NCBI GenBank assembly: GCA_034668465.1
Contig: JAXDPI010000041.1
Location: 381-64,380, forward strand
DNA from: Sphingomonadales bacterium
GTDB lineage: Bacteria > Pseudomonadota > Alphaproteobacteria > Sphingomonadales > Sphingomonadaceae
DNA: 64,000 nt
Reading direction: 5' to 3'
Shown: positions 5,746 through 31,852 of the stretch, piece by piece
Numbering within the stretch: the stretch's first letter is position 1
How the letters are laid out: each line of letters begins with the position of its first letter
Made by a program: the position numbers and the translations under genes
Notes under the pieces: model-generated
The model's input: the letters and a program-made list of their open reading frames with translations, nothing else
Database searches by the model: none
Told to the model about the DNA's origin: nothing

Positions 5746-6333
5746 ATGATGGAGCGGGAGAGGGCGATCCTTGCCGTTTCGAGCCTGACGCTGGCGCTGG
5801 GAATCGCGGCGCTGCTTATCGTGAGCGCGCGGCAGCGCGCTGCCGATGCCCGGCGCAACCTCGACGCCATCATGGTATTCGCCGATCCCTCGCACTGTCG
5901 GCCCGGCGAACCGCTGGCCGGCATCCTGAACGGCCTGTCTTTCTCGGACGAGCGCACCTACCGGCCGCGCGCCGGCGCGCCGATCGCCGTTGCCGGCTTC
6001 CCGGCGCCGCTGCAGCCCCGGCTCAGGCGGCGCTTCGGCGTCGGCCGCGATGCGATGGGATTCATGACCTTCGCCGAGCTCAAGCTGCGCGGGCGGTGGC
6101 ACGGGCTGGCCGTCAGCAGGCTGCGCACGCCCGCCGGCTATGTCGGGATCGACGGTTTCGAAATCCACTTCGACGAGCGGCCCCAGCTGGTCCGCGATAC
6201 ATTGGCGCGCGCCGGCTTTCCGCTTCCCGCGGTCGATGAATGGCGGCAGGCGGACTATCTCCTGCCGGCGCCAACCCCCATGATGAGCGTTCAGTCCGAG
6301 CATGGCGGCGCAACTCTCTACTGCGCGAGATGA
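5746..6333 (+). CDS. Hypothetical protein with N-terminal hydrophobic anchor
   Basis: GAGGAG RBS before the ATG; 195 aa ORF filling the gap between tamB and the MFS gene. Confidence 0.65.
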   Translation: MMERERAILAVSSLTLALGIAALLIVSARQRAADARRNLDAIMVFADPSHCRPGEPLAGILNGLSFSDERTYRPRAGAPIAVAGFPAPLQPRLRRRFGVGRDAMGFMTFAELKLRGRWHGLAVSRLRTPAGYVGIDGFEIHFDERPQLVRDTLARAGFPLPAVDEWRQADYLLPAPTPMMSVQSEHGGATLYCAR

Positions 6334-6344
6334 GGGGCGCCGGA

Positions 6345-7619
6345 ATGAGCCAGAGCCATCGCCTGCGCAACATAATCGGCGGGTCGGCGGGCAACCTCGT
6401 CGAATGGTACGATTGGTACGCCTATTCGGCCTTCACGCTCTATTTCGCGCCGGTCTTCTTCCCGGCGGGCGACCGCACCGCCCAATTGCTGAGCGCGGCG
6501 GCGGTGTTCGCGGTCGGCTTCGTGATGCGGCCGATCGGGGCGTGGGCGATGGGCATCTATGCCGACCGCAAGGGGCGCAAGGCGGGGTTGAGCCTGTCGG
6601 TCGCCTTGATGTGCGCGGGCTCGCTGCTGATCGCGGTGACGCCCGGCTTTGCCGGCATCGGCGCCTGGGCGCCGGCCCTGCTGGTGTTCGCGCGGATGAT
6701 GCAAGGGCTCAGCGTCGGCGGCGAATATGGCGCCAGCGCGACCTATCTGAGCGAAGCGGCGGGGCGCACCCGGCGCGGCTTCTATTCGAGCTTCCAGTAC
6801 GTCACCCTGATCTCGGGCCAGCTGATCGCGCTCGCCGTTTTGATCGTGCTGCAGCAGACGCTGTCGGAGGAAGCGCTCGAGGCGTGGGGCTGGCGGATCC
6901 CGTTCGCGATCGGCGGCGCGCTGGCGGTGATCGTCTTCTACATCCGCCGCCGCCTGAGCGAGACCGAGAGCTTCGAAAATGCACGGGCCTCGGGCGCGCC
7001 GCGCTCGAGCGGGGCCTCCTTGTTCCGCGATCATCCCAAAGCGGCCTTGCTGGTGATGGCGCTGACCGCGGGCGGCACCTTGGCCTTCTACGCCTACACG
7101 ACCTACATGCAGAAATTCCTGGTCAACACGTCGGGCTTCGGCCGCGAGACGGCGACCCTGATCACCGCCGCCGCTCTGTTCCTGTTCATGTGCATCCAGC
7201 CCGCAGCCGGCGCCCTCTCGGACCGGATCGGGCGCAAGCCGGTGATGGTCACGTTCGGCGTGCTCGGCATGCTGCTGACCGTGCCGATCTTCACCGCGCT
7301 GGAGAGCGTGCGCGATCCGCTCGCCGCCTTCGCGCTGGTGCTCGCCGCCTTGCTGATCGTCACCGGCTACACCTCGATCAACGCGGTGGTGAAGGCCGAG
7401 CTCTTCCCCGCCCACATCCGCGCGCTCGGCGTCGCGCTTCCTTACGCGCTCGCCAACACCCTGTTCGGCGGCACCGCCGAATATGCCGCCTTGTGGTTCA
7501 AGGACCAGGGCATCGAGCGCGCTTTCTACTGGTACGTCACCGCGATGATCGGCCTCTCCCTGATCGTCTACCTGTCGATGCGCGACACCAAGAAGCACAG
7601 CCTGATCGCGGAGGATTAG
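6345..7619 (+). CDS. kgtP: MFS metabolite:H+ symporter, alpha-ketoglutarate permease-like
   Basis: GNLVEWYDWYAY, DRKGRK and GLSVGGEYGASATYLSE MHS-family motifs; start trimmed to ATG 6345. Confidence 0.8.
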   Translation: MSQSHRLRNIIGGSAGNLVEWYDWYAYSAFTLYFAPVFFPAGDRTAQLLSAAAVFAVGFVMRPIGAWAMGIYADRKGRKAGLSLSVALMCAGSLLIAVTPGFAGIGAWAPALLVFARMMQGLSVGGEYGASATYLSEAAGRTRRGFYSSFQYVTLISGQLIALAVLIVLQQTLSEEALEAWGWRIPFAIGGALAVIVFYIRRRLSETESFENARASGAPRSSGASLFRDHPKAALLVMALTAGGTLAFYAYTTYMQKFLVNTSGFGRETATLITAAALFLFMCIQPAAGALSDRIGRKPVMVTFGVLGMLLTVPIFTALESVRDPLAAFALVLAALLIVTGYTSINAVVKAELFPAHIRALGVALPYALANTLFGGTAEYAALWFKDQGIERAFYWYVTAMIGLSLIVYLSMRDTKKHSLIAED

Positions 7620-7671
7620 CTCTCCCGCGGACCGACGAAGGGAAGCGGGGGCGAGGGCTTGCGGTCGCGGC
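7616..7671 (-). repeat. Degenerate duplicate of the gcrA 3' end (att-like scar)
   Basis: Reads RDRKPSPPLPFVGPRES* versus RDRKPPPPLPFGGPRVR* in gcrA; 17-bp identical core GGGCTTGCGGTCGCGGC at 7655-7671 and 9267-9283. Confidence 0.85.
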
Positions 7672-7689
7672 AAAATATAACTCGCTCAT

Positions 7690-8274
7690 CTACTTCTTGG
7701 CACGCAATGTCATCGTTCTGACTATAGCTCTTTGTTTCTTCTTGGTGGCTTTGGCTGCTCGTTTGCGCTCGCTGAGAGACTTTCTTTTTTGCCTTTCCTG
7801 CAGGTGCGTGCCAAATCCAGAAATTGCCTTTTCCAACAAATCCTGGCAGTATTCCCACCTGATTTTAGAAGGTCTTATAGTCACCTCATAACTAGGGGAG
7901 ATTTCCGGCCATCGACGGTTAAGATATTCAAGAGAAAAACGCGCGCTTCTGCTATAGTAGTTGAACGTCCACTCACGCATTAGCTTGTCTTGTGGATATG
8001 CTACTGCATTGTCCTCTATGACTCTCTCTAGGAAGGCTTTGCCATGAGTAAAAACCTCTGATCTTCTGCCGGTCTTGTCCGCCAAAAAGGCGGCTCGCCA
8101 GAGGGAGAAGCACACCGAAGTTAGCTCTTGAGCTGCAACCGACAAATCCTTTGTTTTCCAGAATTTATCGTATTCCCGGAGAAGTAGGAGGAGAGCTAAG
8201 GCAGACTTCTGGTTACGGTGTCGGCTTTCGATCAACCAGGCCAGATGCTCTGCATTATCCACTTCGTCCGGCAC
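7690..8274 (-). CDS. Hypothetical protein (islet), helical with a Lys/Arg-rich C-terminal tail
   Basis: Open frame 7690-8346; AGGAGA RBS favours the GTG start at 8274. Confidence 0.7.
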   Translation of the reverse strand: MPDEVDNAEHLAWLIESRHRNQKSALALLLLLREYDKFWKTKDLSVAAQELTSVCFSLWRAAFLADKTGRRSEVFTHGKAFLERVIEDNAVAYPQDKLMREWTFNYYSRSARFSLEYLNRRWPEISPSYEVTIRPSKIRWEYCQDLLEKAISGFGTHLQERQKRKSLSERKRAAKATKKKQRAIVRTMTLRAKK

Positions 8275-8382
8275 GCAGATTCTCCTTGGGCAAATGTTTC
8301 TCGACCAGCCTGCTATGTCTTTGCCCAATGCGCAGCCGCCTGTCACTCTTCGGTGGCATGAGGTGCCAGAACAAGATGGGGA

Positions 8383-8772
8383 TCAGCCGGCGGCGGAAAA
8401 CCCGGCCACGATCATGGAAATGACCGCCGCAAGGAATAGCGCGAACATACCCTGTGCCGCCCAGCGCTCGTGTTTCTTGCTGCCGTTTGCCACCGTTTGC
8501 TGGTTTTCTGTCATCTCCCACCCGTTTTCATTGCGGTCGATCGCTTCCAGCGTCGCGGTAATTCCCATCAGATTTAGCAGGGCAAAGAGAATGGTCATGC
8601 CGAACAGCACCCAGGCAACATAAAGAGCCGAGGGAATGCTGAGCGGCATACCCTCGGGCGCAACTCGAAATTTGTCGAGGAAGGTAACGGTGAATGCAAC
8701 TGCGCCTGTCGACAGCGTGATGATCTGTTTGGTGATATCGGTGGCCGCCTTCAGCCCTTCGATGCTCGCCAT
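8383..8772 (-). CDS. Hypothetical small membrane protein (islet), about three TM segments
   Basis: 129 aa with three hydrophobic stretches. Confidence 0.7.
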   Translation of the reverse strand: MASIEGLKAATDITKQIITLSTGAVAFTVTFLDKFRVAPEGMPLSIPSALYVAWVLFGMTILFALLNLMGITATLEAIDRNENGWEMTENQQTVANGSKKHERWAAQGMFALFLAAVISMIVAGFSAAG

Positions 8773-8773
8773 G

Positions 8774-9097
8774 CTAGTCGCAGAACGGATACCGAGGGCA
8801 GAACCAACTCAGCGCGGGGAAGAAACTAAGCTCCCCCAGTAGATCTGGTGGATAGCCGGGGATGTTCCGCGCGAGCTCTTCAGCCTTGTCAACCAGCTCC
8901 GCCAGAGCGGCTACAGCCTCATCGATCGCATTCCCCGGCTGCTGTCCATGGTCGGCCAAGATCAAGTGTGCGGCCCGCTTAGTAAGGCCCTGGAGCTCCA
9001 AGTCGGCCCCCTCACCCAAATGGCGCCCCATCTCGGAGACGCGGTGTTTCGTGCGTTCGAACAAATGAGCCGCTAGACCATCAACAGTCCAAGCCAT
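8774..9097 (-). CDS. Hypothetical protein (islet)
   Basis: 107 aa ORF ending 1 bp before the next start, consistent with an operon. Confidence 0.5.
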   Translation of the reverse strand: MAWTVDGLAAHLFERTKHRVSEMGRHLGEGADLELQGLTKRAAHLILADHGQQPGNAIDEAVAALAELVDKAEELARNIPGYPPDLLGELSFFPALSWFCPRYPFCD

Positions 9098-9227
9098 CGA
9101 AATCCCCCAACTTTTTCAAAAGCGGGCGCAACCAACCTCGAATTCCTATCGAATACCGGGTGCAGGCGCAACACGGGCGCTCATAATACTGACATCGCGC
9201 GCGCCAGTGCCTGGAGAGGGGGAGCGC

Positions 9228-9914
9228 TCAGCGCACCCTTGGCCCGCCGAAGGGCAGCGGCGGCGGGGGCTTGCGGTCGCGGCGGGGAAGCTGGGCTTGG
9301 TAGGCGACGCCGCAATGCTGGACGCAATAGGGGAAGCCGGGATTGGCCGGGTTGCCGCAGAAGTGGAAATCGGGCTCGCCGGGATGGCCGATCGGCCATT
9401 TGCAGATCTTCTCGTTGAGATCCAGGAGGCCGGTCTTGTCGGCGATTTCGGGACTCGGCTTGGCCGGCACCAGGCGGCGCGGCGGCGCCGGCGGGATCGG
9501 CGCCTGCTGGTCGCTCGGCCCCTGGCGGACGAAGCCGCCCGGGCCGATCGAGCGGACGATCGGCTCCGGCGGGCCGGCCGGGCGCGGCGCTTCCTCGGCG
9601 GGCGGCGCACCCTCGGCGGGGGCCGGGGCGGACTTGGGTTCGGGCTTGGCCCGCGGCGCCGGCGCTTCGGCGGCGGGCGGCTTGGCCGCCGGCGCGGGGG
9701 CGGGCTCGACCTTCTCTTTGGCCTTTGCCTTGGGCTTGGGCTCGGGCTCGTTGGGCTTGACCGGCGACGGCCGCGACTGGAGGCCGAGCCGGTGCGCCTT
9801 GCCGATCACCGCGTTGCGCGAGACGCCGCCGAGCTCGTCGGCGATGTGGCTTGCGGTCATCCCCTTGGTCCACAACGCCTTCAGCCGCTCGATTCGTTCG
9901 TCGGTCCACGACAT
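9228..9914 (-). CDS. gcrA: Cell-cycle regulator GcrA
   Basis: MSWTDERIERLK...SRNAVIGKAHRLGL N-terminus, Pro/Ala linker, CKWPIGHP...FCG...YCVQH C-terminus. Confidence 0.95.
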   Translation of the reverse strand: MSWTDERIERLKALWTKGMTASHIADELGGVSRNAVIGKAHRLGLQSRPSPVKPNEPEPKPKAKAKEKVEPAPAPAAKPPAAEAPAPRAKPEPKSAPAPAEGAPPAEEAPRPAGPPEPIVRSIGPGGFVRQGPSDQQAPIPPAPPRRLVPAKPSPEIADKTGLLDLNEKICKWPIGHPGEPDFHFCGNPANPGFPYCVQHCGVAYQAQLPRRDRKPPPPLPFGGPRVR

Positions 9915-25459: not shown

Positions 25460-25909
25460 TCACTCCACCCACAACCCCGTCTGCCGCAGCGCCTCCGCCA
25501 GCCCGATCCCCGCCGCCACCGCCAGGTTCAGCGACCGCGTCCCCTCGACCTGCGGGATGCGCACCCGCGAGTCCGCCCGCTTATGCACCTCTTCCGGCGC
25601 ACCGCGGCTTTCGGAGCCGAAGAGCAGGGTGTCGCCAAGTTCGAAGCGCGCCTCGGGGAGGGGGACGGCGCCGGCGGTGGTGAACAGGACCAGCCGCCCC
25701 GGCAGCCGCGCCTCGAACGCCGCCCAGTCGGCGTGCCGGGTCACGTTGGCGAGCTCCGCATAGTCCATGCCGGCGCGCTTCAGCGCCTTGTCGCCCCACG
25801 GAAAGCCGCAGGGCTCGATCAGGTCGAGCGGGACGCCGAGGCAGGCGGCGAGGCGCAGGATCGTGCCGACATTCCCCGCCTGGTCGGGCTGATGGAGCGC
25901 GAGCCGCAT
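25460..25909 (-). CDS. trmL: tRNA (cytidine(34)-2'-O)-methyltransferase
   Basis: HQPDQAGNVGTILR, IEPCGFP, RAGMDY, FGSESRG, RSLNLAVA (SPOUT). Confidence 0.95.
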   Translation of the reverse strand: MRLALHQPDQAGNVGTILRLAACLGVPLDLIEPCGFPWGDKALKRAGMDYAELANVTRHADWAAFEARLPGRLVLFTTAGAVPLPEARFELGDTLLFGSESRGAPEEVHKRADSRVRIPQVEGTRSLNLAVAAGIGLAEALRQTGLWVE

Positions 25910-31496: not shown

Positions 31497-31794
31497 GAAC
31501 CCTGGGAGTCGATCCCCGGCTTCCGCGCGACGCCGAGCCGCATCGAGACGCGCGTCTCCTATTTTCAGTCAATGCGGATAAGCGCCTTGGTGATGGCATG
31601 AGGAACGGCGGCTTTCAGGGCTGCGCGAAGCGGTCGTGATCGGCCGTTATGGGCGCATAGCTGCCGTTCGCTCAGGGCTAATGATGCTCTCACACCCCAC
31701 CACCCTTGTCTGCCGTACCGCCTTGGCCACCCCAATCCCCGCCGCCAACGCGAGGATCAGCGAGCGCGTGACCGACAGCTCTGGGTTGCGCGCG

Positions 31795-31852
31795 CCGGAG
31801 GATGGCGCCGGCACGTCCCGCCCTGGTTCGGCTGGTGGAGCGCGAGCCGCAT
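31795..31852 (-). pseudogene. Degenerate duplicate of the trmL 5' end (att-like scar)
   Basis: Reads ATG CGG CTC GCG CTC CAC CAG CCG AAC CAG (MRLALHQPNQ), then a frameshifted GAILR-like remnant; 17 bp identical to 25893-25909. Confidence 0.85.

What the first reader, a model, noticed from the sequence alone, without database searches (positions are those of the whole stretch)
7616..9283. Islet integrated into the 3' end of the cell-cycle regulator gene gcrA
Seen: the last ~18 codons of gcrA occur twice, 1.6 kb apart, with a 17-bp identical core. The functional copy ends GGG CCA AGG GTG CGC TGA. The distal copy abuts the kgtP stop and has decayed to PSPPLPFVGPRES*. The DNA between is AT-richer and holds three orphan ORFs. 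Established: integrases that target coding genes restore the gene end from attP and leave the displaced end at the far junction. Inference: gcrA is an integration hotspot for an element whose integrase has been lost. I do not know of gcrA as a described att site.
Basis: partly seen in the sequence, partly recalled or inferred. Interest (0 to 1): 0.75.

Follow-up and report, generated by a model that had tools for sequence, protein, structure and literature searches.

The report
Small foreign islet at gcrA's end
A 1.6-kb piece of foreign DNA with three genes of unknown function sits just after the cell-cycle gene gcrA, bracketed by two copies of the gene's last 18 codons; the insertion is real, but nothing shows gcrA is a recurrent docking site.

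Summary
The last 54-56 nt of gcrA occur twice, at 9228-9283 (functional) and 7616-7671 (decayed). They match at 45 of 54 positions, share a 17-nt identical block and lie 1612 nt apart. They bracket low-GC DNA carrying three intact genes.

- The islet and its contig carry no integrase.
- No other genome among 155 of the genus, 400 of the family and about 25 related loci has a second gcrA tail.
- The proposed empty kgtP-gcrA site never existed. Relatives have gcrA followed by a variable 0.2-3.9 kb interval and then parE, and kgtP facing glnA. This genome is rearranged: glnA-parE lies on another contig.
- Two of the three ORFs, orfA and orfB, lie in this same gcrA-parE interval in other Sphingomonas, without repeats.
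- A homologue of the third ORF is the only gene of a 0.76-kb islet bracketed by a duplicated tRNA-Glu 3' end. This supports a cassette-type insertion.

Best reading: circular foreign DNA inserted by a single crossover at gcrA's end, using an enzyme made elsewhere. A later rearrangement placed kgtP beside the orphan tail. Interest is moderate.

The parts
9228..9914 (-). gcrA, complete and functional-looking (228 aa)
   Evidence: Pfam PF07750 GcrA, E 1.8e-44. Aligns over its length with gcrA of 23 relatives.
9228..9283 (-). Proximal repeat copy: the last 18 codons plus stop of the working gcrA (RDRKPPPPLPFGGPRVR*)
   Evidence: It is 91-95% identical to the tails of the nearest relatives, the same as the adjoining gene body.
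7616..7671 (-). Distal repeat copy: orphan, decayed gcrA tail (RDRKPSPPLPFVGPRES*). Its 17-nt block identical to the proximal copy is at 7655-7671.
   Evidence: It has four nonsynonymous changes at residues that are the same in every relative aligned or read.
7672..9227 (-). The islet: 1556 nt of lower-GC DNA, present once in the genome
   Evidence: Composition. Uniqueness. Absent at DNA level from 40 relatives.
8774..9097 (-). orfA, 107 aa, unknown function. The C-terminus FPALSWFCPRYPFC is nearly the same in the two homologues compared.
   Evidence: 51% and 49% identical to the gene preceding orfB in L031 and L034. No hit in Pfam, PHROGs, PADLOC or NCBIfam.
8383..8772 (-). orfB, 129 aa; hydrophobic stretches suggest a small membrane protein. 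Forms a pair with orfA.
   Evidence: 42 homologues. Always preceded by an orfA homologue in the loci read. Only a weak sub-threshold MARVEL hit.
7690..8274 (-). orf194, 194 aa (GTG start), all-helical with a basic C-terminal helix, unknown function, lowest GC of the islet (48%)
   Evidence: 301 homologues across phyla, all annotated hypothetical. AF2 model pLDDT 77, with no PDB fold or sequence match. The homologue in L083 is the sole gene of an islet flanked by a tRNA-Glu 3' end duplication.
6345..7619 (+). Its stop TAG (7617-7619) overlaps the remnant's stop.
   Evidence: Pfam Sugar_tr and MFS_1. In G024, G019 and G006 the gene ends GAGGATTGA and is followed by unrelated DNA.
7614..7620 (.). 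Rearrangement junction between the transporter's stop and the orphan tail's stop
   Evidence: Similarity to relatives' transporter gene ends at GAGGATT. Similarity to gcrA starts at AGC. Relatives carry a REP hairpin directly after each of the two stops.

Best explanation
The stretch 7672-9227 is horizontally acquired DNA. It lies in what is, across Sphingomonadaceae, a variable interval between the conserved genes gcrA and parE.

Proposed mechanism:
1. The DNA entered by one reciprocal crossover between the chromosome's gcrA 3' end and a circular DNA carrying its own copy of the last ~56 nt of gcrA (Campbell-type insertion).
2. That event leaves one complete gcrA (9228-9914) and one orphan tail (7616-7671). 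The orphan tail has since picked up four amino-acid changes.
3. The islet encodes no recombinase, so the crossover was made by an enzyme encoded elsewhere.

I lean towards a site-specific, cassette-type event in trans rather than plain RecA recombination. The islet ends 18 nt after the stop of orf194. A homologue of orf194 forms a one-gene islet of the same layout at the 3' end of a tRNA-Glu gene in another organism.

The islet is probably composite. It combines the orfA-orfB pair, which lies between gcrA and parE in some other Sphingomonas, with a lower-GC orf194 unit.

A separate rearrangement later removed the block running from glnA to parE from between the transporter gene and gcrA. That rearrangement was probably linked to the REP hairpins that follow both stop codons in relatives. 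It explains why the orphan tail now touches the transporter's stop.

Shown: the repeat, the foreign composition, the conserved gcrA-parE and kgtP-glnA linkages in relatives, and the absence of an integrase. Inferred: the circular intermediate, the enzyme, the order of events and the role of REPs.
For: The repeat and the insert:
- The repeat is unique in the genome and far above chance.
- The junctions are reproduced in independent contigs.
- The insert has foreign composition: GC3 0.52-0.70 against 0.90.
- orfB is absent from 155 other genomes of the genus and from 400 of the family. orf194 is in 1 of 400 genomes of the class.
- The three ORFs are intact, with lengths matching their homologues.
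- The remnant carries four nonsynonymous changes at residues that are the same in every relative aligned or read.

The parallel case:
- In L083 an intact tRNA-Glu is followed by a 0.76-kb islet. Its only gene is an orf194 homologue (64% identical) on the same strand. A 45-nt copy of the tRNA 3' end follows 34 nt later.

Similar structures in this genome:
- Upstream of parE (G000:C45) three direct copies of the parE promoter plus first codons bracket a MazF-like gene and a 375-nt insert.

The variable interval:
- gcrA is followed by parE after 0.2-3.9 kb in more than 20 genomes. The intervening genes differ; the one interval read in full (G477) has no integrase.

The rearrangement:
- kgtP faces glnA in G019, G024, G007 and G015.
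- In this genome glnB-glnA precede parE on contig C45.
- In G007 kgtP and gcrA have the window's order and orientation but lie 169 kb apart, with glnA and parE at the ends of the intervening block.
Against: - There is no integrase, excisionase or other mobility gene in the islet, and no PF00589 hit on the 82-kb contig.
- No second example of a duplicated gcrA tail was found in more than 580 genomes and loci.
- orfA-orfB lie directly after gcrA without any repeat in S. naasensis, S. kyeonggiensis, two other Sphingomonas and several metagenome contigs. The insert could therefore be a slice of a foreign chromosome that recombined through gcrA homology.
- Only 2 of 11 orf194-family loci show flanking target duplications.
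- The functional tail looks native. That fits poorly with a crossover in the 17-nt block if the donor was distant.
Confidence: 0.5

Rival explanations
1. Homology-driven capture. A fragment of another sphingomonad's chromosome ran from inside gcrA through orfA-orfB (and orf194). It was circularised and integrated by RecA through the ~56 nt of gcrA homology. No dedicated att site or integrase was ever involved, and the gene-end duplication is a by-product.
For: - The insert is collinear with the native gcrA-orfA-orfB order in other Sphingomonas, which have no repeats.
- On the parE side, one duplicated promoter copy plus the MazF-like gene is collinear with G560's native MazF-promoter-parE region, at 80% identity. 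The two promoter copies share 100 nt at 93%, which is enough for RecA.
- The gcrA-parE interval behaves as an integrase-free variable region between core genes.
- Nothing recurs at gcrA.
Against: - 56 nt with only 17 identical in a row is near the lower limit for RecA-mediated exchange (general knowledge).
- A short linear fragment would have to be circularised first.
- In three cases the foreign piece ends 11-34 nt after a stop codon. That looks like a defined cassette end rather than random breakage.
- The tRNA-Glu parallel is the classic signature of site-specific integration.
Confidence: 0.3
2. gcrA's 3' end is the dedicated att site of an integrative element family. The element's integrase was deleted here, the functional tail came from attP, and the distal tail is the displaced native end next to its native neighbour kgtP.
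For: - The repeat layout, foreign composition and decayed distal copy fit.
- The tRNA-Glu parallel for one cargo gene fits.
That claim was not checked here.
Against: - kgtP is not gcrA's native neighbour in any of the about 30 relatives checked.
- No larger, integrase-bearing version and no second gcrA tail turned up in more than 580 genomes.
- The functional tail matches relatives as closely as the gene body does.
- There is no integrase relic in the islet.
- The cargo genes have no homologue on any known plasmid or phage.
Confidence: 0.12
3. A scar of local duplication or rearrangement. The orphan tail is a leftover of a tandem duplication of the gcrA end, or of the event that joined the kgtP and gcrA regions. 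The three genes accumulated between the copies independently.
For: - The orphan tail sits exactly at a rearrangement junction.
- The region is a known variable interval.
- The islet looks composite by GC: 48% against 57-60%.
Against: - Staggered-break inversion would place the copies at different junctions in inverted orientation, not in direct orientation 1.6 kb apart.
- The foreign DNA starts precisely at the end of the 17-nt identical block.
- The same layout with a homologous gene occurs at a tRNA.
Confidence: 0.08

Closest known systems
Genomic islands and integrative elements that insert into the 3' end of a gene and restore it. Examples are tRNA-targeting islands and the ICESt1/ICESt3 family in the 3' end of fda, with their integrase-less CIME derivatives (from general knowledge, not checked in a paper here).
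   Same: - A direct repeat made of the target gene's last tens of nucleotides brackets foreign DNA.
- The gene stays intact and the distal copy is an orphan.
- Like CIMEs, there are no recombination genes inside.
   Different: - No autonomous relative with the same site is known.
- The element is tiny (1.6 kb, three genes).
- The target, gcrA, has not been described as an att site. A literature search for gcrA with attB and integrase returned two papers; neither title nor abstract concerns integration at gcrA, and neither was read.
- No recurrence was found in more than 580 genomes.
Integration hotspots between conserved core genes, filled and emptied mainly by homologous recombination in the flanks (a concept from comparative genomics, cited from general knowledge)
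   Same: - gcrA and parE are linked in more than 20 genomes.
- The interval between them is 0.2-3.9 kb and holds different accessory genes: a cupin lipoprotein, MazEF, orfA-orfB, a COQ7-like gene and an MCP.
- The one interval read in full (G477) has no integrase.
   Different: - Flank-mediated double crossover does not leave a duplicated gene end, and here one is present.
- The hotspot has been split by a rearrangement in this genome.
Campbell-type single-crossover integration of a circular DNA
   Same: The topology matches: the shared segment is duplicated in direct orientation on both sides of the insert.
   Different: The shared segment is very short (56 nt). Neither the circle nor the enzyme has been observed.

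Membership tests
Integrase-mobilised genomic island in the 3' end of a gene | Direct repeats made of the target's 3' end flank the insert | tested here: met
   54-56 nt repeat, 45/54 identical, unique in the genome.
Integrase-mobilised genomic island in the 3' end of a gene | A tyrosine or serine recombinase gene inside the element | tested here: not met
   No Pfam, PHROGs, NCBIfam or PADLOC hit for any of the three ORFs. No PF00589 match on contig C41.
Integrase-mobilised genomic island in the 3' end of a gene | Insert of foreign composition | tested here: met
   GC 48-60% against a genome value of 68%. GC3 0.52-0.70 against 0.90.
Integrase-mobilised genomic island in the 3' end of a gene | Empty site with the same two flanks in relatives | tested here: not met
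   No relative has kgtP next to gcrA. Relatives have gcrA followed by parE, and kgtP facing glnA.
Integrase-mobilised genomic island in the 3' end of a gene | The same site is used again in other genomes | tested here: not met
   Only this genome has a second gcrA tail next to gcrA among 156 genomes of the genus. Two other genomes there have a second full-length tail match on another contig, not followed up. No second tail in the family sample, in about 25 orfAB loci or in four Sphingomonas genomes.
Integrase-mobilised genomic island in the 3' end of a gene | Excision to a circle and an empty site | not testable with these tools
CIME-like element (att-flanked, no recombination genes, mobilised in trans) | Flanked by att-like repeats and lacking mobility genes | tested here: met
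CIME-like element (att-flanked, no recombination genes, mobilised in trans) | A related autonomous element using the same site | tested here: not met
   None found. The cargo genes are absent from plasmid and phage collections.
Variable hotspot between core genes (gcrA-parE) | Conserved flanking genes with variable content between them across genomes | tested here: met
   gcrA tail and parE start lie 0.2-3.9 kb apart in more than 20 genomes, with different genes between.
Variable hotspot between core genes (gcrA-parE) | Exchange by homologous recombination in the flanks | not testable with these tools
   Only indirect evidence: collinearity of the insert with other genomes' gcrA-orfA-orfB.
GcrA cell-cycle regulator (for the target gene) | Match to Pfam PF07750 over the domain | tested here: met
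   E 1.8e-44, residues 1-212.

The most novel reading that the evidence does not exclude
The orf194 family marks a class of minimal cassettes (about 0.7-1.6 kb) without an integrase. These cassettes insert at the 3' ends of genes: tRNA-Glu in one organism and gcrA here. They duplicate 45-56 nt of the target and end 18-34 nt after the orf194 stop. The helical, basic-tailed protein might itself take part in integration. The parE-start and trmL-start duplications in this genome would then be products of related cassette traffic.
Probability: 0.12. Interest if true: 0.75.

Novelty: new member of a known kind. Interest (0 to 1): 0.4.

Why it matters
gcrA is a master cell-cycle regulator in alphaproteobacteria. 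An insertion mechanism that cuts into its last codons yet preserves the protein shows how tightly such events are filtered.

The wider result is that the gcrA-parE interval is a family-wide landing zone for accessory genes. This genome also carries several small islets bracketed by duplicated gene ends, none with an intact integrase found. If these are true trans-mobilised cassettes, they would be a little-noticed route of gene gain in sphingomonads. If they are products of short-homology recombination, they are ordinary.

Tried and rejected
- **Chance repeat:** rejected. The genome-wide scan gives 45/54 against a next best of 38/54.
- **Assembly artefact:** rejected. Two independent contigs are identical.
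- **Second copies of the islet or its genes in the genome:** none.
- **Known families for the three ORFs:** none in Pfam, PHROGs, PADLOC or NCBIfam.
- **orf194 as a disguised recombinase:** the AF2 model is all-helical with pLDDT 77, and there is no PDB fold or sequence match. The idea is unsupported, though a new fold cannot be excluded.
- **Plasmid or phage origin of the cargo:** no tblastn match. Only distant relatives (26-36% identical) occur in four viral contigs.
- **RNA genes, tRNAs or terminators at the borders:** nothing.
- **Staggered-break inversion as the source of the duplication:** rejected on topology.
- **A donor lineage for the orphan tail:** the best match is a generic gcrA tail (90% over 48 nt), so no donor was identified.
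- **A pattern scan for the kgtP-stop/gcrA-tail junction in 185,579 species genomes:** no match.
- **The ~50-aa ORF downstream of gcrA in seven relatives, and the YkgJ-like gene of G024:** both absent from this genome.
Full report
**What is there**

gcrA lies at 9228-9914 on the minus strand (Pfam GcrA, E 1.8e-44). Its last 18 codons plus stop occur a second time at 7616-7671 on the same strand. The repeat finder gives 7618-7671 and 9230-9283 as a 54-nt direct repeat, 83% identical and 1612 nt apart. The 17 nt nearest the gene body are identical (GGGCTTGCGGTCGCGGC on the plus strand, at 7655-7671 and 9267-9283).

An ungapped scan of the whole 3.37-Mb genome on both strands finds this 45/54 match once, and the next best is 38/54. 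The distal copy reads RDRKPSPPLPFVGPRES*. The working gene and every relative aligned or read have RDRKPPPPLPFGGPRVR* or RDRRPPPP.... The distal copy therefore carries four amino-acid changes at otherwise unchanging positions and is a decayed pseudo-tail.

Two Logan contigs from different sequencing runs are 100% identical to the window from gcrA through the islet and remnant into the transporter gene. The structure is therefore not an assembly artefact.

**The DNA between the copies**

The stretch 7672-9227 has 45-60% GC, against 68% for the genome. It holds three intact genes on the gcrA strand.

| Gene | Coordinates | Length | GC3 |
|---|---|---|---|
| orfA | 8774-9097 | 107 aa | 0.68 |
| orfB | 8383-8772 | 129 aa | 0.70 |
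| orf194 | 7690-8274 | 194 aa | 0.52 |

gcrA and the transporter gene have GC3 of 0.90-0.92. None of the three matches Pfam, PHROGs, PADLOC or NCBIfam. The islet occurs once in the genome. There is no integrase in it, and no PF00589 match anywhere on the 82-kb contig.

**The ORFs are not orphans**

- orfB has 42 homologues. An orfA homologue precedes it in the loci read.
- The pair is rare. It is absent from 400 sampled genomes of the family and from the 155 other genomes of the genus. In a sample of 201 genomes of the S. naasensis genus it occurs in 2.
- Where it occurs in Sphingomonas, it sits in one place. In S. naasensis, S. kyeonggiensis, Sphingomonas sp. R-74633, sp. Sphisp66 and several metagenome contigs the order is ABC-2 permease (opposite strand), gcrA, orfA, orfB and further on parE.
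- In other contigs the pair lies directly upstream of parE.
- None of these loci, and none of the four whole genomes, has a second gcrA tail.
- orf194 belongs to a family of more than 300 hypothetical proteins scattered over several phyla. It occurs in 1 of 400 sampled alphaproteobacterial genomes.
- Its neighbours elsewhere resemble defence islands: a protein kinase plus a UvrD-like helicase, or PIN_12 plus a MORC-like ATPase plus an Eco57I-type methylase.
- An AlphaFold model (pLDDT 77) is all-helical with a long basic C-terminal helix. It has no significant match in the PDB by fold or sequence.

**The neighbourhood in relatives**

In every relative whose downstream flank was read, gcrA has one tail. 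The 17-nt 'core' is simply conserved gcrA coding sequence.

Downstream of gcrA the genes differ, but parE follows on the same strand after 0.2-3.9 kb in more than 20 genomes of the genus and of other genera. In G006 the spacer is about 130 nt. In G477 the interval holds a cupin lipoprotein, a glyoxalase-like gene, a membrane protein and a MazEF pair, and no integrase. The gcrA-parE interval is therefore a family-wide variable region.

The transporter gene is never next to gcrA in relatives. In G019, G024, G007 and G015 it faces glnA across 0.1-2.9 kb.

In this genome parE is on another contig (C45:87735 onward), preceded by glnB-glnA. In G007 the transporter gene and gcrA have the same order and orientation as in the window but are 169 kb apart. 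glnA lies at one end of the intervening block and parE at the other.

This genome thus looks like G007 with that block removed and its two ends joined. That could arise by excision and re-insertion, or by successive inversions.

**Why the orphan tail touches the transporter's stop**

Relatives carry a copy of a genus-wide REP hairpin (GGGGACAGTT...AACTGTCCCC, several dozen copies in this genome by blastn) within a few bases of two stops:
- the transporter's stop in G019;
- the gcrA stop in G431 and G555.

In this genome one copy follows glnA at the partner junction. I infer that the rearrangement used or was guided by these hairpins, and that the hairpin between the two convergent stops was then lost. 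This is inference only.

**How the duplication arose**

A direct duplication of a gene end on both sides of foreign DNA is what a single reciprocal crossover produces when the chromosome recombines with a circle that carries a copy of that gene end. Two enzymologies fit.

(a) A site-specific recombinase acting in trans on a small cassette. The evidence for this:
- In L083 an intact tRNA-Glu is followed by a 0.76-kb AT-richer islet. Its only gene is an orf194 homologue (64% identical) on the tRNA's strand.
- 34 nt after its stop comes a 45-nt copy of the tRNA's 3' end. This is the same layout as here, where the orphan tail starts 18 nt after the orf194 stop.
- The foreign pieces end 11-34 nt after a stop codon in three cases. 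That looks like a defined cassette end.

(b) RecA acting on the short homology of a circularised slice of a foreign chromosome. The evidence for this:
- The insert is collinear with the native gcrA-orfA-orfB order of other Sphingomonas.
- On the parE side of the old interval, three direct copies of the parE promoter plus first codons lie at C45:86480-86600, 87240-87360 and at the true start 87742-87772. They bracket a MazF-like gene and a 375-nt insert.
- One of those blocks is collinear with the repeat-free native arrangement of G560, at 80% identity.

I lean to (a) but cannot exclude (b).

**Native or donated tail**

The functional tail is 91-95% identical to the tails of the nearest relatives. 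The adjoining gene body is 90-93% identical to them. The functional tail also shares an AGG arginine codon with one group of relatives (G477, G497, G458, G015). It therefore looks native, or donated by a close relative. Which copy was the original cannot be settled.

- The core idea holds: an insertion that duplicates the gene end and keeps gcrA intact.
- The specific claims do not hold. No lost integrase is shown, gcrA is not shown to be a recurrent hotspot, and kgtP is not the native flank. No second gcrA tail appears in 155 genomes of the genus, a 400-genome family sample or about 25 related loci.
- A full-text search for gcrA with attB and integrase returned two papers. Neither title nor abstract concerns integration at gcrA, and neither was read.

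**Limits**

- No genome closer than about 89% nucleotide identity in flanking genes was available.
- Only 11 orf194-family loci could be read, and 2 of them have flanking duplications.

Noticed in passing
G000 contig C45:86480-87772 (outside the window): Three direct copies of the parE promoter plus first codons: 86480-86600, 87240-87360 (93% identical over 100 nt) and the true start (26 nt identical). They bracket a MazF-like gene (86612-87196) and a 375-nt insert. This is a gene-start counterpart of the gcrA tail duplication. Both displaced copies keep a GAAC-N7-GAAC motif, which I read as an SOS box from general knowledge.
   Followed up: partly
window 6345-9914 with G000 C45:83636-89744: The gcrA-parE and kgtP-glnA linkages seen in relatives are both broken here. 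They are replaced by kgtP-gcrA and glnA-parE. This is what results if the block that is 169 kb long in G007 were cut out and its ends joined.
   Followed up: partly
L083:483-1366: A tRNA-Glu is followed by a one-gene 0.76-kb islet holding an orf194 homologue, closed by a 45-nt copy of the tRNA 3' end (93% identical). The islet has no integrase.
   Followed up: partly
G000 C45:85896-85921 and dozens of other places in the genome: A REP-like palindrome GGGGACAGTT(N)AACTGTCCCC is present in several dozen copies (68 blastn rows, which include palindromic self-matches). In relatives it lies directly after the stops of gcrA, the transporter gene and glnA.
   Followed up: partly
window 25502-25909 and 31731-31852: The duplication another first-stage note reports at the trmL start is real. 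The repeats are 37 nt at 86% and 70 nt at 74%, about 6 kb apart.
   Followed up: partly
window 8383-9097; L031, L034, L042-L045, L052, L054: orfA-orfB is a conserved two-gene unit with a stop-start gap of 1-9 nt. It usually lies just upstream of parE. In the two homologues compared, orfA ends in a near-identical FPALSWFCPR(Y/H)PFC.
   Followed up: partly
window 5746-6333: The 195-aa ORF between tamB and the transporter gene is missing in G007, where tamB runs directly into the transporter gene.
   Followed up: no
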